Shown here piece after piece: positions 12,754-58,204 of a stretch of DNA of 64,000 nucleotides (its first letter is position 1; each line of letters opens with the position of its first letter). The stretch covers positions 19,009-83,008 of the forward strand of contig CAJXTU010000006.1 in NCBI GenBank assembly GCA_913060865.1, in the 5' to 3' direction. The notes beneath the pieces were generated by a model. The model was not told the DNA's origin. It saw only the letters and a program-made list of their open reading frames with translations, and ran no database searches. The position numbers and the translations under genes were made by a program. This DNA comes from an uncultured Cycloclasticus sp. (GTDB lineage: Bacteria > Pseudomonadota > Gammaproteobacteria > Methylococcales > Cycloclasticaceae).

Positions 12754-15594
12754 ATGGACACTATTCAAATTCGCGGTGCAAGAACCCATAACTTAAAAGA
12801 AATTGACCTTGACCTGCCTCGAGATAAATTGATTGTTATCACGGGGCTATCCGGTTCTGGCAAATCTTCTTTAGCCTTCGACACCATTTACGCTGAGGGT
12901 CAGCGTCGTTATGTCGAATCGTTATCAGCCTATGCGAGACAGTTTTTGTCGGTGATGGAAAAGCCCGATGTCGACCACATTGAAGGCTTATCACCGGCTA
13001 TTTCTATTGAGCAAAAATCCACCTCTCATAACCCACGCTCAACAGTTGGGACGATTACAGAAATTTATGATTACTTACGGCTATTATTTGCCAGAACAGG
13101 TATTCCTCAATGCCCCGACCACGGCACCTCGTTAGAAGCGCAAACGATTACTCAAATGGTGGATTCTGTTCTCGCGCTTAACCCAAATAAACGCTGGATG
13201 TTATTAGCGCCTGTTATCCAAGAACGTAAAGGCGAACACTTTAATACGTTAAGTGATTTACGCAATCAAGGTTTTATTCGTGCACGTATTGATGGTGAAG
13301 TTGTTGAACTAGACGATGCTCCACCGTTAGAGTTAAAGAAGAAACACACCATAGAAGTTATCGTGGATCGATTCAAAATTCGTAACGATTTATCTACTCG
13401 ACTCGCCGAGTCTTTCGAAACGGCTTTAAAGCTCACCGAGGGCATTGCCGTCATCAGCAGCATAGATGATGACGAAGAAATTCTATTTTCCGCACGTTTT
13501 GCCTGCCCAACATGCGGATACAGCATCAGTGAATTAGAGCCACGAAGCTTCTCGTTTAACAGCCCAAAGGGGGCTTGCTCAAGCTGTGATGGCTTAGGCA
13601 TTAAACAATACATTGATTCTACACAAGTATTACATAGCCCCGATATTAGCCTTGCCGGTGGCGCTATCCGCGGTTGGGATAAGCGTAATATGTACTACTA
13701 CCAAATGGTCATGTCGCTGGCAAAACATTATCATTTTGATCCAGAAGAGCCGTTTAATTCTTACTCAGAAGAAATCCAACACGCTATTTTATTTGGTAGT
13801 GGTGATGAACCAATCAACTTTACAACACTCAACAGCCGGGGCGAATCAGTTAAACGTACTCACCCTTTTGAGGGTGTTATTCATAGTATGGAACGTCGCT
13901 ATCGTGAAACCGATTCGAGTACCGTGCGAGATGAATTGGCCAAGTACCTATCGAGCAAAGCCTGCCCAGACTGTCATGGCCAACGTTTAAACACCGCTGC
14001 TCGCCATGTCTTTGTTAATACGCACACCTTGCCTGCCATCACCAACCTTTCCATTCGCCAATCTAGCGCCCTATTTGCCTCTCTAGAACTTGCTGGGCAT
14101 CGTGGCGAAATCGCCAAAAAAATCATCAAGGAAATTAAAGCCCGTCTCGATTTTTTAATTAACGTGGGCTTAGACTACCTTTCGCTAGACCGAAGCGCAG
14201 ACACATTGTCGGGCGGCGAGGCTCAACGAATACGCCTAGCCAGCCAAATTGGTGCCGGGCTTGTAGGCGTTATGTATGTCTTAGATGAACCGTCCATTGG
14301 CTTGCACCAACGAGATAATCAACGCCTCATCAATACGCTGTTCCACCTGCGTGACATCGGCAATACCGTTATTGTTGTTGAACACGATGAAGATGCTATT
14401 TTAGCCGCTGACCATGTGGTTGATATTGGGCCAAAAGCTGGTATTCATGGCGGAGAAATTATTGCTCAAGGCACGCCACAGGAGATTATCAACAACCCCA
14501 ACTCGACAACCGGGCAATACCTGTCGGGGCAGCAATATATTGCCGTGCCAAACAAGCGCCACCAAGCCGATACGACAAAAAAGTTGCGCATTAATAATGC
14601 TCGCGCCAACAACTTAAAAAATGTTAGCGTTGATATCCCTATCGGTTTATTTACTTGCGTCACGGGCGTGTCTGGTTCAGGAAAATCAACCCTGATCAAC
14701 GAAACCTTGTACCCAACCGTCGCAAAAGTACTCAATAAATCATCGCTGCCCATCGCAGCCAATGATGGTGTTGATGGCTTAAAACAGATTGATAAAGTTG
14801 TCGACATCGATCAAAGCCCGATTGGCCGTACGCCTCGCTCAAACCCTGCCACTTATACGGGGCTTTTCACACCGATTCGGGAGCTATTTGCGGCAACCCC
14901 AGAAGCTCGATCACGCGGTTATACACCAGGCCGATTCAGCTTTAACGTAAAAGGTGGCCGCTGTGAAACCTGTAAAGGGGATGGCGTTATTAAGGTAGAA
15001 ATGCACTTTCTTGCCGATGTTTACGTCAATTGTGAAAGCTGTAAAGGCCAACGTTACGGTCGAGAAACCTTAGAGGTTCGCTATAAAGGCAAAACCATCC
15101 ACGAGGTACTGTCAATGACGGTTGAGGATGCCTGTGTATTTTTTGACGCCATACCCGTCATCTCTAGAAAACTCCAAACTCTAATGGACGTGGGGCTTGG
15201 CTATATCACCTTAGGACAAAATGCCGTCACCTTATCCGGTGGAGAGGCTCAGCGCGTGAAGCTATCTCGTGAATTATCGAAACGCGACACAGGCAAAACC
15301 TTATATATCCTTGATGAACCCACCACCGGCTTACACTTTGCCGATATTCAGCAGTTACTCACCGTTTTACATACGCTGCGTGACCACGGAAATACGCTCG
15401 TTGTTATTGAGCATAATCTCGATGTTATAAAAACGGCTGATTGGGTCATTGATATGGGTCCCGAAGGTGGCGATGGTGGCGGTCAAGTTATCGCTGAAGG
15501 CACGCCTGAAGCCGTTGCTCAATGTAGTGATTCTCACACGGGACATTACCTTAAAGACTTCCTAAGCAAAGCTATCAATAGCCAGTCGGCATAA
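12754..15594 (+). CDS. uvrA: Excinuclease ABC subunit A
   Basis: GARTHNLK, two Walker A ([16 protein letters not shown]), zinc fingers, two LSGGEAQR. Confidence 0.99.
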
Positions 15595-16519: not shown

Positions 16520-16549
16520 AAAAAACACCCTCTATTTGATAGAGGGCGC
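16520..16549. terminator. Intrinsic terminator between convergent BASS gene and tupA
   Basis: CCCTCTAT-TTG-ATAGAGGG stem with a U-tract on the minus strand. Confidence 0.8.
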
Positions 16550-16573
16550 TTATCAAGCTTAAGCTAGCGTTAA

Positions 16574-17383
16574 TTACTGAGCGTCAGGGTAAAACAACTG
16601 CTGACCACCTTTGCGAAAGCTCGCGATGATGTCTTGACCTTCTTTGCTCGTTACGAATTTAATATACTTCATTGCTAGGTCGTACTTAACGCCTTTATGC
16701 TTTTCAGGGTTAACAGCCATCACATGGTAGGGGTTAAATAAAGCATCATCTCCTTCAAACAATACCTTCAACGACACTTTATCAGCAAAAGCAATTTGAG
16801 TACCTCGGTCTGTTAATGCATATGCTTGCTTTTCATTCGCTATATTTAGCACGGCACCCATGCCTTGGCCCACGTCTACATACCAATCTCCGACAGGTGT
16901 AACACCCCCTTTTTGCCATAAAAGCCTTTCTTTCTTATGCGTGCCTGAGTCATCACCCCTAGAAATAAAAGCCGCCTCTACATCGGCAATTCTTTGCAAT
17001 GCTTCTTCGACGGTCCCCGCCGTGGCTAATCTTGCTGGGTCATTGGCCGGCCCTATCAGCACAAAGTCATTATGCATCACAGCTTTACGATCAATAAAAT
17101 CACCAGACTTAACATATTTCAATTCTGCGCCTGGCGCATGAACAAACACCACATCAACATCACCTTGTGCACCCATTCTCAATGCTTTACCTGTACCGAC
17201 CGCAATCGCTTCAAGCTTGATACCGTACTGCGCTTCAAACGCAGGGTTTAACACCGCCAATAACCCTGAGTTTTCTGTACTGGTGGTGGTTGACATTCTA
17301 AGCACATCCGATGCTAAGCTGGCCGGTGCCACCATAGCTAATGTACTTAAACCTACAAATAACACTGCTTTAATTATTCTCAT
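16574..17383 (-). CDS. tupA: Tungstate ABC transporter periplasmic binding protein
   Basis: Signal peptide; STTTSTENSGLL (TTTS motif), VGTGKAL, HNDFVLIGP, FISRGDDSGTH, NPYHVMAVNP. Confidence 0.88.
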   Translation of the reverse strand: MRIIKAVLFVGLSTLAMVAPASLASDVLRMSTTTSTENSGLLAVLNPAFEAQYGIKLEAIAVGTGKALRMGAQGDVDVVFVHAPGAELKYVKSGDFIDRKAVMHNDFVLIGPANDPARLATAGTVEEALQRIADVEAAFISRGDDSGTHKKERLLWQKGGVTPVGDWYVDVGQGMGAVLNIANEKQAYALTDRGTQIAFADKVSLKVLFEGDDALFNPYHVMAVNPEKHKGVKYDLAMKYIKFVTSKEGQDIIASFRKGGQQLFYPDAQ

Positions 17384-17460
17384 CTAACATCCCCTCTTAC
17401 TTAAGTCATTAATTTTATTCATAACACTTAAGACGGCTAATAAAAGCCGCATTTCATTGC

Positions 17461-18819
17461 CTAGAATGCCCATTGACCGCGAAGCTGCATAATGTCGGCT
17501 TCTTCATTTTCGTGCGCTCCACCGTCCACTTCTAATACTTTGATGTAGTTGGCAGAAAAACGTAAACCTGCTACTGGAAACCAATTTAGACCCAGTGTCA
17601 TATTGTCCATCTCACCACCGTCTATGCCAGAATCCACTAAATCAATCGTGCTATAGCGAAGCGCTAGTTCCCACGCACCCATACCACCGTTACCAAACGG
17701 GCTATTCGGTTTAACGGCTTTAAATTTTGCACCTTTGTGAGTATACGGGCGCGTATCATCCGTTAGGAACCAACCTGTTTGTGCGTACCAACCATCAAAT
17801 GTAGGGTCGCTTGTCGTCTCGCGGTCTAACTGAGTACGGATATATTCCATTTGGCCAGAAAACCTATCTTGAACAACCGCTAATTCAGCCCCTAATGATA
17901 GGTAGCTATCAACATCCATTAGTTTGCCCGTATCCACAAAATTCACGCCTGATATGTTGGTTTCCGGCTGCTGTTTGAATTGAACCTCACCACCACGGCT
18001 ACTACGGTAATTTGCCGCCAACCCTAAATGAACTAACGAGCCCTTTTCATTCACTGGCATCCAAGTAGCACGCCCCCCTAATCCCCAACCTTCATCATCT
18101 GAGCCACCATTGGTACTCGCTTTATCACCAAACACACCAAGTGCTGTTGTCCAGTGCTGACGGTTAATGCTGCCCATTACGCCAATATGTCTGCCTGCCG
18201 TAAAGGCATCAATAGACGCTCTTTCGGTAAATTGCGTATTATTATCACTCACTTGATCTTGCAGCATAAAAGGATCTCTAAAGTGCCCAGCCTTAACACT
18301 TAGGCCTGCAAAATCAAACCCGTTATAACCCACCCAAATATCGGTAATGCCTTTTCTTGTATCCCCTGTTCCGGCAAAATCATATTCAAACTTATAGAAC
18401 CAATCTTTATTTACCGTGCCTTTAATATAAAGCCTTGCACGGCGTACCTTCGTACCATCGCCCAACGTACTACCTGTTGCCGAATCATCTTCGCCATACC
18501 AAGCTGAATCTAACTGCATTCGACCGCCGATTTTTGTAGTGAAATCGCCATCACGTGATTTAACAGCCAAGCCACCTTTATCAACATTCACTTCAACGCT
18601 TGTTGCCTTATCAAGCTTTTCTTGAATCTCGGCTGCCTGCGCTACCGTTTTTTGTTCTGAAGCGTGCGCTTCGGCTAATACACGTTGATATTGCGCATCT
18701 GATATCGTGCCATTTTCATGCAGCAACATGAGCAGCGTTTTAAGCTCCGAACCGGCGTGTGCTGGTGATGATAATCCGGCACAAACGGCCATTGCTAACG
18801 CTAACTTATTAAATTTCAT
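17461..18819 (-). CDS. OprO/OprP-family oxyanion-selective outer-membrane porin
   Basis: Signal peptide from ATG 18819 (AAGGA RBS), KIGGRMQLD, RRARLYIKG, GAWELALRYS, C-terminal aromatic QWAF. Confidence 0.85.
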   Translation of the reverse strand: MKFNKLALAMAVCAGLSSPAHAGSELKTLLMLLHENGTISDAQYQRVLAEAHASEQKTVAQAAEIQEKLDKATSVEVNVDKGGLAVKSRDGDFTTKIGGRMQLDSAWYGEDDSATGSTLGDGTKVRRARLYIKGTVNKDWFYKFEYDFAGTGDTRKGITDIWVGYNGFDFAGLSVKAGHFRDPFMLQDQVSDNNTQFTERASIDAFTAGRHIGVMGSINRQHWTTALGVFGDKASTNGGSDDEGWGLGGRATWMPVNEKGSLVHLGLAANYRSSRGGEVQFKQQPETNISGVNFVDTGKLMDVDSYLSLGAELAVVQDRFSGQMEYIRTQLDRETTSDPTFDGWYAQTGWFLTDDTRPYTHKGAKFKAVKPNSPFGNGGMGAWELALRYSTIDLVDSGIDGGEMDNMTLGLNWFPVAGLRFSANYIKVLEVDGGAHENEEADIMQLRGQWAF

Positions 18820-18863
18820 TCGTTTTTCCTTATTATTGATTCCCAAAATACCTGTTGGCACAA

Positions 18864-18880
18864 AGCAAAACCAATGCCAA
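18864..18880 (-). promoter_or_regulatory. Sigma54 (-24/-12) promoter of the porin-tupA unit
   Basis: Minus strand TTGGCATTGGTTTTGCT = GG-N10-GC in TGGCA...TTGC context, about 45 bp upstream of the porin ATG. Confidence 0.85.
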
Positions 18881-18897
18881 CGGGTTTGCTATTTCTT

Positions 18898-18910
18898 CAA
18901 CTAACTGATT
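18898..18910 (-). promoter_or_regulatory. IHF binding site
   Basis: Minus strand AATCAG-TTAG-TTG matches WATCAR-N4-TTR, preceded by an A/T tract, lying between the sigma54 promoter and the activator sites. Confidence 0.7.
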
Positions 18911-18965
18911 AATAAAAAATTTTCTGAATCCTACTTAATCACGTATCAAAGATGCACTAGACTTA

Positions 18966-19012
18966 TGTGACATTTTGTCTCAAGATACAAAGTCTTTTGA
19001 CAGAATGTCTCA
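18966..19012. promoter_or_regulatory. Tandem upstream activator palindromes
   Basis: TGTGACA-TTT-TGTCTCA (18966-18982) and TTTGACA-GAA-TGTCTCA (18996-19012), 30 bp apart. Confidence 0.7.
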
Positions 19013-19024
19013 TCACTATTTTTC

Positions 19025-19972
19025 ATGAACACTCCAAAAAACCCTCAGCTTCGCAAAGCTATTCGCGACCGCCACTCATTTTTTGGCAATAACCCCATTA
19101 TCGTCAAACTATTGGATGATATTCAGCGTGTCGCCCTTAAAAACACACCAATTTTATTAGACGGCGAAACAGGTACCGGCAAAAGCTTATTAGCTAGAAA
19201 AATTCATGATCTCAGCCAACGTAAAGGTCCCTTTGTATCCATTAACTGTGCAACCTTTAGTCAACATCTACTAGAAACTGAATTATTTGGCCACGCAAAA
19301 GGCGCTTTTACAGGTGCAAAGGACGCACGAAAGGGACTAGTCGCCACAGCGCAAAACGGCACCCTTTTTTTAGATGAAATTGGTGAGCTTCCACTAGACT
19401 CCCAACCAAAACTTTTGCATCTTTTAGAAGAAAAAACGATTCGTCCTGTTGGTTCAGACAAAGAATATAACACCTCCGTCCGTATCGTCGCTGCGACTAA
19501 CCAACGCCTAAAAGACCTCGTTAAACAAGGTTTATTCAGAGCAGACTTATATTATCGCTTAAGTGTCGTCCCCTTTACCGCCCCTCCCCTTCGTGAACGC
19601 CCAGATGATATTGAGGCACTCACCACAACCTTTGTCTCCCAACTTTGTGAGGAACACGAGCTATCAAAACCTAGCATATCAACCGAATCAATCAATGCAT
19701 TAAAAGCGCATGACTGGCCCGGCAATATTCGCGAGCTGCGCAACCATATTGAACGCTCGTTACTCTTAGGCACCCCGTTACATGAGAAGCTACCGATAAA
19801 TAAAAACCATTCGCCAGCTACAAGCACACGATGCCTAAAATCACTCGAGAAGGCACACATCCTTAAGGTTATCGATGAGAGTAATGGCAATAAATCTCAA
19901 GCCGCGAACAATTTGGGGATTTCTCGCCGCACACTGGATAGAAAGCTGAAACGTTGGCAGCAAGCCGCCTAA
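19025..19972 (+). CDS. Sigma54-dependent enhancer-binding activator lacking an N-terminal sensor domain
   Basis: Walker A GETGTGKS, GAFTGA loop, FLDEIGE, FRADLYYRL, WPGNIREL, Fis-type HTH; only about 20 aa precede the AAA+ domain. Confidence 0.92.
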   Translation: MNTPKNPQLRKAIRDRHSFFGNNPIIVKLLDDIQRVALKNTPILLDGETGTGKSLLARKIHDLSQRKGPFVSINCATFSQHLLETELFGHAKGAFTGAKDARKGLVATAQNGTLFLDEIGELPLDSQPKLLHLLEEKTIRPVGSDKEYNTSVRIVAATNQRLKDLVKQGLFRADLYYRLSVVPFTAPPLRERPDDIEALTTTFVSQLCEEHELSKPSISTESINALKAHDWPGNIRELRNHIERSLLLGTPLHEKLPINKNHSPATSTRCLKSLEKAHILKVIDESNGNKSQAANNLGISRRTLDRKLKRWQQAA

Positions 19973-57262: not shown

Positions 57263-58204
57263 CTACTCAAACTCCATTTGCCGAAACATAGTACTCGCGT
57301 TTCTAAGCGTCAACTCATCAAAAACATCTAGATGCTCATAGGCGGATTGGTCTATTTTAGTGGCATCATGCAAGGTCCCATCTTCTTCCAACAGCTGACT
57401 AATTTGTTGCCGCATGTACACTAAATAATCACGGGTGTATTTAGTCACTTCCTGCATAGTTGTTGGCCCACCATGGCCAGGAATAACGATCTGTGCGCCT
57501 AACGCCGCAAATTGATCCCATGTTTCCAGCCAAGCCGATGTGTCGGTATCTTCCATCACCGGCAAAAGGCGTTTATGAAAAGCCATATCGCCAGCAATGA
57601 CTAGCTTTTGATTCGGCAACCAAACAATAATATCGCCAGGACTATGTGACGGGCCTAAATGTAACAACTCAATCCGCTCACCGCCCATTTGTATTATTTT
57701 TTTGTCTTCGAATGTTTCATCCGGCAGTGTTAACGCGGTGCCTGCTGACTTATCCTTTCGGCCTTTTTTCATTCTATCAAGGCTCTCATGACCGTGCATT
57801 TCAAGCTCTTGTTTAGTTTCAATATGCGCAATGACTGAAACACCTTGCTCTTTCCAATAATTAGAGCCAAGAGCCGCATGGCCTTGGCCATTCTCAAGCA
57901 CTACATATTTTACGGGCTGATCGGTAATTAACTTAATGGCTTTGTGCATGGATTGCGCCAATAAGTAATTATCACTCGCATTTACCAGTAAAACCCCTTC
58001 ACTGGTGATGATAAAACTCAAATTATTGTTATGCCCTGAGTTGTCATACGTCGGCGGTGCCGTGGCGCCAATGGCTGACCAAACATTGTCGGTAACCTGT
58101 TGCGGCTGACTGAACAGCAATGAGCTCGGTGCGTTTCCTGCCAACAACAAGGTTGGCATAAAAGCGACTATTAACAAAACCAATGCCATCCACGTTTTAA
58201 TCAT
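57263..58204 (-). CDS. Exported MBL-fold protein, SoxH-like
   Basis: Signal peptide, GHNNNLSF, ENGQGH replacing HxHxDH, HSPGD, AGD, IPGHG. Confidence 0.75.
   Translation of the reverse strand: MIKTWMALVLLIVAFMPTLLLAGNAPSSLLFSQPQQVTDNVWSAIGATAPPTYDNSGHNNNLSFIITSEGVLLVNASDNYLLAQSMHKAIKLITDQPVKYVVLENGQGHAALGSNYWKEQGVSVIAHIETKQELEMHGHESLDRMKKGRKDKSAGTALTLPDETFEDKKIIQMGGERIELLHLGPSHSPGDIIVWLPNQKLVIAGDMAFHKRLLPVMEDTDTSAWLETWDQFAALGAQIVIPGHGGPTTMQEVTKYTRDYLVYMRQQISQLLEEDGTLHDATKIDQSAYEHLDVFDELTLRNASTMFRQMEFE

What the first reader, a model, noticed from the sequence alone, without database searches (positions are those of the whole stretch)
18864..19012. Complete sigma54 enhancer architecture readable in 150 bp
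Moving upstream on the minus strand: the -12/-24 element TTGGCATTGGTTTTGCT, an IHF consensus with A/T tract (18898-18924), then two palindromes TGWGACA-N3-TGTCTCA spaced 30 bp (about 3 helical turns), roughly 90-135 bp from the promoter. This matches textbook sigma54 promoter geometry (established) and gives a predicted binding motif for the adjacent activator. The second site ends 12 bp before the activator ATG, suggesting negative autoregulation (inference).
Basis: partly seen in the sequence, partly recalled or inferred. Interest (0 to 1): 0.65.

Follow-up and report, generated by a model that had tools for sequence, protein, structure and literature searches.

The report
Sigma-54 enhancer-promoter for tungstate-uptake operon
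The 150 bp hold a genuine-looking, evolutionarily conserved sigma-54 promoter with an IHF-like site and two activator-binding palindromes. It sits between a sensor-less activator gene and an outer-membrane porin/tungstate-binding-protein operon in a Cycloclasticus bacterium: a good but ordinary example of a textbook design.

Summary

- **Promoter:** the -24/-12 box TGGCATTGGTTTTGCT (18879..18864, minus strand) is the only full consensus match in 64 kb.
- **Palindromes:** two GACA-N3-TGTC sites lie 30 bp apart, at 18966-18982 and 18996-19012.
- **IHF:** an IHF-like core plus A/T tract lies between the palindromes and the promoter.

All of these are phylogenetic footprints in Cycloclasticus intergenic regions.

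The promoter and palindromes occur only where the neighbouring activator gene occurs. Orthologous porin-SBP operons in Methylophaga, methanotrophs and a Cycloclasticus mussel symbiont lack the activator, the consensus -24/-12 box and the palindromes.

The same 17-bp palindrome, TGRGACA-W3-TGTCYCA, sits about 105-125 bp upstream of sigma-54 promoters of tupA in Vibrio, Aliivibrio and Shewanella (Photobacterium has it at -161). There the homologous activator is a true response regulator paired with a histidine kinase.

The window's activator is 315 aa and has lost that receiver domain. Its target operon encodes an OprP/O-like porin and a TupA tungstate-binding protein.

Negative autoregulation is plausible, because the palindromes overlap a conserved weak sigma-70-like promoter of the activator gene.

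Nothing has been tested experimentally. I rate it a new member of a known kind, of moderate interest.

The parts
18864..18879 (-). Sigma-54 -24/-12 promoter TGGCATTGGTTTTGCT (GG 18878/18877, GC 18866/18865). Predicted TSS about 18853.
   Evidence: Only exact consensus match in the window. TGGCA and TTTTGCT are invariant in 5 Cycloclasticus loci while the spacer varies. Also present in L081 and L082.
18898..18923 (-). IHF-like core AATCAGTTAGTTG (18910..18898) with a 5' A/T tract (18923..18911), centred about -51 from the predicted TSS.
   Evidence: The core sits at -51/-50 in 5 close Cycloclasticus loci (strict consensus in 3, one mismatch in 2). No consensus in the more distant L081/L082.
18966..18982 (.). 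UAS1 palindrome TGTGACA-TTT-TGTCTCA, centre -121. Predicted high-affinity site of the adjacent activator.
   Evidence: 14/17 columns invariant. Same motif next to homologous activators in other genera.
18996..19012 (.). UAS2 palindrome TTTGACA-GAA-TGTCTCA, centre -151, 30 bp from UAS1. Ends 12 bp before the activator ATG.
   Evidence: Less conserved (8/17 invariant; GTCA or GACT variants), but kept at 30-32 bp from UAS1 in all 7 Cycloclasticus-type loci.
18958..18986 (+). Putative weak sigma-70 promoter of the activator gene: TAGACT (18958-18963), 17-nt spacer containing UAS1, CAAGAT (18981-18986).
   Evidence: Conserved as T(A/G)GAC(T/A)-N17-(C/G)AnnAT in 6 short-form loci. Only 7/12 to consensus, so below the scan threshold. 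Inference only.
19025..19972 (+). Sigma-54 activator (bEBP), 315 aa: AAA+ Sigma54_activat domain with GAFTGA, AAA lid and HTH_8. No N-terminal sensory or receiver domain.
   Evidence: Pfam 212 bits. Below every NCBIfam equivalog cut-off. The ORF cannot extend upstream. dN/dS 0.066 against L002.
17461..18819 (-). First gene of the target operon: OprP/OprO-family anion porin, 452 aa with signal peptide. True start is ATG 18819, with Shine-Dalgarno AAGGA at 18831..18827.
   Evidence: Porin_O_P 225 bits. PDB OprP 2o4v and OprO 4rjx. ATG and SD conserved.
16574..17383 (-). Second gene: TupA-type periplasmic tungstate/molybdate-binding protein, 269 aa, with a TTTS motif.
   Evidence: PBP_like_2. NCBIfam TupA 245 bits, below the 400 cut-off. 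PDB 3lr1 Geobacter TupA E 2.6e-81 and 5my5.
16523..16551 (-). Terminator-like hairpin (13-bp stem plus T run) that ends the two-gene operon.

Best explanation
The divergent intergenic region is a sigma-54 enhancer-promoter.

- Closed complex: RNA polymerase with sigma-54 binds TGGCAT-N5-TTGCT upstream of the porin-tupA operon.
- Activator binding: dimers of the neighbouring 315-aa enhancer-binding protein bind, through its Fis-type HTH, two palindromes (consensus TGRGACA-W3-TGTCYCA). The palindromes lie three helical turns apart at about -121 and -151. This would nucleate the AAA+ ring.
- Looping: an IHF-type bend centred near -51 would bring the ring to the closed complex, and ATP hydrolysis would open the promoter.
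- Autoregulation: the same two sites overlap a weak sigma-70 promoter and the leader of the activator gene, so occupancy probably represses the activator's own synthesis.
- Origin of the activator: it is a receiver-less descendant of a two-component response regulator that drives tupABC-Moco genes in Shewanella, Vibrionaceae and Ferrimonas. It is therefore probably constitutively active, with output set by its autoregulated level and by sigma-54/IHF availability.

Shown here: the anatomy, its conservation, co-occurrence with the activator gene, and motif sharing across genera. Inferred: binding, sigma-54 and IHF dependence, autorepression and constitutive activity.
For: - Elements at the stated coordinates and rarer than chance.
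- Footprint pattern in 5 Cycloclasticus regions.
- UAS1-UAS2 spacing is 30-32 bp in 7 loci. The UAS1-to-GG distance is 96-98, 86 or 74 bp, that is, differences of about 1 and 2 helical turns.
- Consensus promoter and palindromes are absent upstream of 15 orthologous porin-SBP operons that lack the activator gene (Methylophaga, Methylococcaceae, Bathymodiolus symbiont).
- The activator has an intact Walker A/B and GAFTGA and is under purifying selection.
- Its nearest domain-bearing relatives are response regulators divergent from tupABC-mobA-moeA with an adjacent Cache histidine kinase. The recognition helix is conserved, and three of the four loci carry a -24/-12 box plus GnCA-W3-TGnC sites under my scan. 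The fourth, GC-rich Inmirania, gave no hits to those patterns.
- A DNA-only scan for palindrome plus -24/-12 returned 16 tupA loci among 120 hits. Flanks outside the pattern reproduce TGR...YCA.
- A sigma-70-like promoter overlapping the UASs is conserved.
Against: - No TSS, binding or expression data. Metatranscriptome contigs are undirected; in 3 of 4 runs they cover the whole intergenic region, which may reflect DNA carry-over, so they neither support nor contradict a TSS at the predicted place.
- rpoN and ihfA/B were not looked for; the window is only 64 kb.
- The IHF consensus is common in this AT-rich DNA (17 per 64 kb) and is missing in L081/L082.
- The proposed sigma-70 promoter is weak (7/12) and was not reported by the scan.
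- Constitutive activity rests on analogy with DctD/NtrC1-type regulators. An unknown trans-acting partner cannot be excluded.
Confidence: 0.8

Rival explanations
1. The palindromes are operators of a different regulator, for example a Mo/W-sensing repressor of ModE or TunR type. The adjacent activator would then act from elsewhere or from solution.
For: The operon concerns a Mo/W oxyanion-binding protein. In Methylophaga the orthologous operon lies divergent to a PBP_like (PF12727) regulator-type gene. No binding data exist.
Against: The palindromes are found only where the bEBP gene is. The same motif accompanies homologous bEBPs with a conserved recognition helix across several genera. No TunR-like gene is in the window. 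The position at -120/-150 with three-turn spacing is typical of enhancers, not of operators of the porin promoter.
Confidence: 0.07
2. The architecture is a decaying relic. After losing its receiver domain and kinase, the activator is inactive or irrelevant, and the operon is expressed from a sigma-70 promoter. This would be a step toward the state in the mussel symbiont, where the activator gene is gone.
For: There is a reductive series: true response regulator, then a 444-aa form with a pseudo-receiver lacking the phospho-Asp, then the 315-aa form, then no gene in L087, which keeps only a degenerate TGGGAGTCTATTTTGCT. A sigma-70-like GTGCCA-N18-AATAAT lies just downstream of the -12 box.
Against: The activator is under strong purifying selection (dN/dS 0.066) and keeps all catalytic motifs. 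Short forms at 64-98% identity are found in many assemblies, including cultured C. pugetii, C. zancles and strain P1. Promoter and UAS columns are nearly invariant while neighbouring DNA drifts. The sigma-70-like -10 overlaps the Shine-Dalgarno region and would give an mRNA without it.
Confidence: 0.08
3. The system works as proposed, but the activator is not constitutive. Its AAA+ domain would be controlled in trans by an unidentified anti-activator or small ligand, as PspA controls PspF or c-di-GMP controls FleQ.
For: Known sensor-less bEBPs (PspF, HrpS) are controlled in trans (established knowledge, from memory). A Mo/W uptake operon would be expected to respond to metal supply, yet no sensor is encoded nearby.
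Against: No candidate partner gene lies in the locus: proS follows the activator, and the operon holds only porin and tupA. There is no direct evidence either way.
Confidence: 0.3

Closest known systems
E. coli pspF-pspA divergent control region (PspF)
   Same: A sensor-less bEBP (AAA+ plus HTH only) is encoded divergently from its sigma-54 target. Two upstream activator sites and an IHF site lie between them and the -24/-12 promoter. The sites overlap the activator's own sigma-70 promoter, giving negative autoregulation (established knowledge, recalled from memory).
   Different: Not a PspF orthologue: TIGR02974 scores 252 bits against a cut-off of 444. No pspA-like anti-activator gene. The target is a porin/TupA operon. 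The protein descends from a response-regulator clade.
Shewanella oneidensis SO_4718/SO_4717 type two-component system next to tupABC
   Same: These are the closest domain-bearing homologues (about 49% identity, conserved recognition helix). The gene is divergent from a tupA homologue, with a -24/-12 promoter and the same TGRGACA-W3-TGTCYCA sites at about -105 to -125. [quoted passage not shown] SO_4719/4720 are TupA/TupB (PMC5826389).
   Different: The window's protein lacks the receiver domain and has no histidine kinase partner. Its operon has an OprP-like porin and no tupBC or Moco genes. The second UAS is 30 bp from the first, rather than about 45-82 bp.
Classical NtrC/DctD/ZraR-type enhancers (glnAp2, dctA, zraP)
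   Same: Tandem dyad sites 100-150 bp upstream on the same helical face, with looping to a -24/-12 promoter. The closest solved structures are Aquifex NtrC4 (4l4u) and ZraR (1ojl).
   Different: Those activators are switched by phosphorylation of a receiver domain. Here there is none.

Membership tests
Sigma-54 (-24/-12) promoter | GG and GC doublets exactly 10 bp apart within TGGCAC-N5-TTGCW, oriented toward a gene at leader distance. | tested here: met
   Exact match at 18879..18864, 44 nt before the ATG at 18819. It is the only match in the window and is conserved in 7 orthologous regions.
Sigma-54 (-24/-12) promoter | Transcription start about 12 nt downstream of the GC, dependent on rpoN. 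| tested here: inconclusive
   Only undirected metatranscriptome contigs are available. They show the genes in RNA libraries but no 5' end. rpoN was not searched for.
Bacterial enhancer-binding protein (bEBP) | AAA+ Sigma54_activat domain with a GAFTGA loop, plus a C-terminal DNA-binding HTH. | tested here: met
   PF00158 212 bits, PF25601, PF02954. GAFTGA, Walker A GETGTGKS and Walker B FLDEIGE are present in the sequence.
Bacterial enhancer-binding protein (bEBP) | Upstream activator sequences: dyad-symmetric sites about 80-150 bp upstream of the promoter. | tested here: met
   Two dyads at -121 and -151. They co-occur with the activator gene. Binding itself was not tested.
PspF | Scores above the curated PspF equivalog cut-off and is paired with pspA. 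| tested here: not met
   TIGR02974 251.7 against 443.55, and NF008622 209.5 against 529. The neighbours are porin, tupA and proS.
tupA-associated sigma-54 response regulator (SO_4718 type) | N-terminal receiver domain and adjacent Cache-type histidine kinase. | tested here: not met
   No PF00072, and only 20 residues precede the AAA+ domain. No kinase homologue in the window.
tupA-associated sigma-54 response regulator (SO_4718 type) | Divergent from a tupA homologue, with a shared recognition helix and shared operator motif. | tested here: met
IHF-assisted sigma-54 promoter | WATCAR-N4-TTR core with a 5' A/T tract between UAS and promoter; IHF binding and bending. | tested here: inconclusive
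   The consensus is present at -51 and kept in place in 5 close loci. The pattern is frequent in this DNA and absent in L081/L082. Binding cannot be tested here.
TupA tungstate-binding protein | Scores above the NCBIfam TupA equivalog cut-off and is encoded with tupBC. | tested here: not met
   244.8 bits against a cut-off of 400. No tupB in the window. It is nevertheless the closest family: 3lr1 E 2.6e-81, TTTS motif.

The most novel reading that the evidence does not exclude
Cycloclasticus may preserve the end of a stepwise dismantling of a two-component system. The series runs from response regulator plus kinase, to a pseudo-receiver form without a kinase, to a bare AAA+/HTH activator, to complete loss in a mussel symbiont. 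At the bare-activator stage, a signal-switched sigma-54 enhancer would have become a constitutively firing, self-limiting circuit, or one controlled by a still unknown trans-acting factor. That circuit drives an outer-membrane/periplasmic tungstate-capture module (OprP-like porin plus orphan TupA) that no one has characterised.
Probability: 0.35. Interest if true: 0.55.

Novelty: new member of a known kind. Interest (0 to 1): 0.36.

Why it matters
- It gives a concrete, cross-genus operator motif (TGRGACA-W3-TGTCYCA) and promoter layout for a bEBP family that, in the literature I could search, is known only from annotation (the SO_4718-type 'tungstate transport' regulators).
- It links sigma-54 to tungstate/molybdate acquisition.
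- It offers a natural series for asking what happens to an enhancer-dependent promoter when its activator loses its sensor.
- It also allows correct annotation of the porin start codon and of the operon in Cycloclasticus, an important marine PAH degrader.
- Mechanistically it adds nothing beyond the textbook sigma-54 model.

Tried and rejected
- **RNA evidence for the TSS.** No RNA run holds the window's sequence, and contigs laid from same-study runs gave only spurious GAFTGA-region matches. For the close relative L002, metatranscriptome contigs cover genes and intergenic DNA alike, are undirected and are at low depth, so they are uninformative.
- **Moco riboswitch or other Rfam element** upstream of orthologous operons: none found.
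- **PspF identity:** rejected on curated cut-offs.
- **Sigma-70 scan:** the activator's putative promoter was not reported. The one hit near the porin start would delete the Shine-Dalgarno and was dismissed.
- **One-mismatch sigma-54 matches** in the window are at chance level (10 against 12 expected). The near-identical TGGCATTGGTTTTGTT at 58173-58188 lies inside a signal-peptide coding region.
- **The third GACAN3TGTC** at 14200 lies inside the 12754-15594 ORF (uvrA by orthology to L081 and L288) and was taken as chance.
- **Literature:** searches combining tupA or tungstate with sigma-54 or RpoN found no experimental study.
- **tupB, kinase and TunR-like genes:** not in the window.
- **dN/dS** for more distant pairs was saturated or mis-framed and was discarded.

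Full report
**1. Observation**

On the minus strand:

- The -24/-12 element is TGGCATTGGTTTTGCT at 18879..18864. GG is at 18878/18877 and GC at 18866/18865.
- This predicts a start near 18853, 34 nt upstream of the ATG at 18819, which has an AAGGA Shine-Dalgarno at 18831..18827.
- It is the only exact match to TGGCAYN5TTGCW in the 64-kb window (0.26 expected). Because 23 of 100 shuffles give at least one match, its weight comes from position and conservation.
- One-mismatch matches are at chance level.
- The IHF-like core AATCAGTTAGTTG lies at 18910..18898, with a 13-nt A/T run immediately 5' of it. The core is centred at -51.
- The IHF pattern occurs 17 times in the window (7.7 expected), so alone it is weak evidence.

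The two palindromes are TGTGACA-TTT-TGTCTCA (18966-18982) and TTTGACA-GAA-TGTCTCA (18996-19012).

- Their centres are 30 bp apart, at -121 and -151 from the predicted start.
- GACAN3TGTC occurs three times in the window against 0.54 expected. No shuffle reached three, and two of the three are these neighbours.
- Site 2 ends 12 bp before the activator ATG at 19025.

**2. Genes around it**

- **Activator, 19025..19972 (+).** This 315-aa protein has a Sigma54_activat AAA+ domain (212 bits), an AAA lid and a Fis-type HTH_8, and carries GAFTGA. Only about 20 residues precede the AAA+ domain, and the ORF cannot extend upstream. It stays below every NCBIfam equivalog cut-off, including PspF.
- **Porin, first gene on the minus strand.** The promoter drives a 452-aa OprP/OprO-family porin with a signal peptide (Pfam 225 bits; PDB 2o4v, 4rjx).
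- **TupA-like protein, second gene.** This 269-aa periplasmic binding protein matches Geobacter TupA 3lr1 at E 2.6e-81 and has a TTTS motif. It is below the strict TupA cut-off.
- **Operon end.** A strong hairpin terminator follows at 16551..16523.
- **Not in the window.** There is no tupB permease, histidine kinase or TunR-like gene.
- **Organism.** It is a Cycloclasticus: the best loci are Cycloclasticus MAGs. An 88%-identical activator is present in C. pugetii, C. zancles and strain P1 under generic names.

**3. Phylogenetic footprinting**

I aligned five Cycloclasticus intergenic regions whose activators are 70-90% identical to the window's. The alignment shows islands of conservation exactly at the proposed elements.

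| Element | Invariant columns |
|---|---|
| UAS1 | 14/17 |
| -24/-12 box (spacer varying) | 12/16 |
| UAS2 | 8/17 |
| IHF core (N4 positions varying) | 7/13 |
| DNA between UAS1 and the A/T tract | 0/33 |
| DNA between IHF core and -24 | 2/18 |

Two more distant loci were also examined: L081 (65% identity) and L082 (61% identity, a 444-aa form). Both keep the -24/-12 box and both palindromes.

- UAS1-UAS2 spacing stays at 30-32 bp in all seven loci.
- The UAS1-to-GG distance is 96-98 bp in five loci, 86 bp in L081 and 74 bp in L082. The differences are close to one and two helical turns.
- The strict IHF consensus is limited to the closer relatives.

**4. Co-occurrence**

The porin-SBP operon has orthologues in Methylophaga, Methylococcaceae and related MAGs (SBP 56-74% identical, porin 35-59%). 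It also occurs in the Cycloclasticus symbiont of Bathymodiolus heckerae (porin 76%).

- None of these loci has the activator within the fetched flanks.
- None of the 15 examined has a consensus -24/-12 box or a GACAN3TGTC upstream of the porin gene. The two control Cycloclasticus loci scored positive.
- In the symbiont, proS abuts the porin gene and only a degenerate TGGGAGTCTATTTTGCT remains at the homologous position.
- In a Methylophaga locus the operon is instead divergent to a PBP_like (PF12727) regulator-type gene. In Methylobacter the SBP is divergent to an ABC ATPase with a TOBE domain. Both fit a Mo/W oxyanion function.

**5. Origin of the activator and the motif**

Database homologues fall into three tiers.

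| Tier | Identity to window | Length | Features |
|---|---|---|---|
| Short forms | 64-98% | mostly 311-322 aa | no N-terminal domain |
| Intermediate forms | 56-62% | mostly 441-451 aa | weak receiver-like N-terminus |
| True response regulators | about 49% | 433-500 aa | PF00072 receiver |

- The intermediate forms have an N-terminus that is only a weak Response_reg match (E 0.036). In the one sequence examined (P0027) it lacks the phospho-acceptor Asp and the conserved Lys, and has no adjacent kinase.
- In Ferrimonas, Photobacterium, Shewanella and Inmirania the true response regulators lie in one conserved locus. It reads tupA-tupB-tupC-mobA-mobB/moeA(-moaA), divergent from the response regulator and a Cache-type histidine kinase.
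- The recognition helix is conserved across the tiers.
- Three of those four intergenic regions carry a -24/-12 box and GnCA-W3-TGnC dyads, for example Photobacterium GCGACATTTTGTCCCA. GC-rich Inmirania gave no hit to my patterns.

I then ran a DNA-only scan of the genome collection for GACAWWWTGTC-N65-95-TGGCAYN5TTGCW.

- 16 of the 120 lie directly upstream of a tupA homologue, 14 of them with a divergent bEBP in the fetched stretch. The genera are Vibrio, Aliivibrio and Shewanella, plus one Cycloclasticus-like MAG.
- The proximal site sits at -105 to -124.

The S. oneidensis member, SO4718, is annotated as a sigma-54 two-component regulator for tungstate (molybdate) transport, and the paper describes it as not experimentally characterised (PMC2667191). 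SO_4719/4720 are TupA/TupB (PMC5826389). I found no experimental paper on this family.

**6. Mechanism**

The best-supported model is the textbook one.

- A sigma-54 holoenzyme forms a closed complex at 18879..18864.
- Activator dimers sit on two same-face dyads and nucleate the AAA+ ring.
- An IHF-type bend near -51 delivers the ring to the promoter.

On the plus strand there is a weak sigma-70-like promoter for the activator gene: TAGACT (18958-18963), a 17-nt spacer, then CAAGAT (18981-18986). It is conserved as T(A/G)GAC(T/A)-N17-(C/G)AnnAT in six short-form loci. UAS1 lies inside its spacer and UAS2 at about +3 to +19. This is a better argument for autorepression than mere proximity to the ATG.

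The activator has intact catalytic motifs and a dN/dS of 0.066 against L002, so it is not a relic. Its relatives have a long helical receiver-AAA+ linker. By analogy with DctD/NtrC1-type regulators (inference from established knowledge), loss of the receiver should leave it constitutively active. Control by an unknown partner remains possible.

**7. What failed or is missing**

- No usable RNA evidence. Runs holding the window are DNA metagenomes. Metatranscriptome contigs for the relative L002 show the three genes in RNA libraries, but they are undirected, shallow, and in three of four runs span the intergenic DNA.
- No Moco riboswitch.
- rpoN and ihf genes were not examined. One paper mentions another sigma-54-dependent regulator in C. 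zancles (PMC8125074).

**8. Verdict**

- It is a new member of a known kind: a standard sigma-54 enhancer-promoter.
- The mildly novel aspects are the receiver-less activator, the porin/TupA target and a cross-genus operator motif for an uncharacterised regulator family.
- Confidence in the core model is 0.8. I put IHF involvement at about 0.6, autorepression at about 0.5 and constitutive activity at about 0.4.

Noticed in passing
L087:3340-3580 (Cycloclasticus symbiont of Bathymodiolus heckerae): The activator gene is missing: proS lies about 200 bp from the porin gene. Both palindromes are gone, and only a degenerate -24/-12-like TGGGAGTCTATTTTGCT remains 47 nt before the porin ATG.
   Followed up: partly
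L082:6001-7335 and P0025-P0034: Forms of the activator, mostly 441-451 aa and 56-62% identical, carry an N-terminal pseudo-receiver (Response_reg E 0.036). In the one sequence examined (P0027) the phospho-Asp is replaced by Ser and the conserved Lys is lost. No kinase is adjacent. In L082 the target operon starts with an Alginate_exp-type porin instead of Porin_O_P, behind a 160-nt leader.
   Followed up: partly
L100:2427-3494 (Methylophaga sp.); L140:3822-4811 (Methylobacter marinus): Where the bEBP is absent, the orthologous porin/TupA-like genes sit next to a PBP_like (PF12727) regulator-type gene, or next to an ABC ATPase with a TOBE domain. This suggests different regulatory solutions for the same module.
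   Followed up: partly
window 16574-18819: The operon holds a porin and a TupA-like binding protein but no permease or ATPase, and none is in the 64-kb window. The same two-gene porin-SBP module recurs in Methylophaga and relatives.
   Followed up: partly
window 17461-18861: The mechanical ORF call starts at GTG 18861, which would run the porin reading frame into the region just downstream of the -12 box (18864). The conserved SD and ATG at 18819 mark the real start.
   Followed up: yes
window 58173-58188 (-): TGGCATTGGTTTTGTT is identical to the promoter box in 15 of 16 positions, but it lies inside the signal-peptide coding part of a 313-aa ORF. I took it as coincidence.
   Followed up: yes
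L169, L172, L179, L215, L223 and others (Bradyrhizobium, Rhizobium, Mycoplana): The composite DNA pattern also recurs, at a near-constant 101-104 bp length, in many rhizobial genomes 2-3 kb from a bEBP homologue and without tupA. This probably reflects a different, unrelated sigma-54 regulon with a similar dyad.
   Followed up: no
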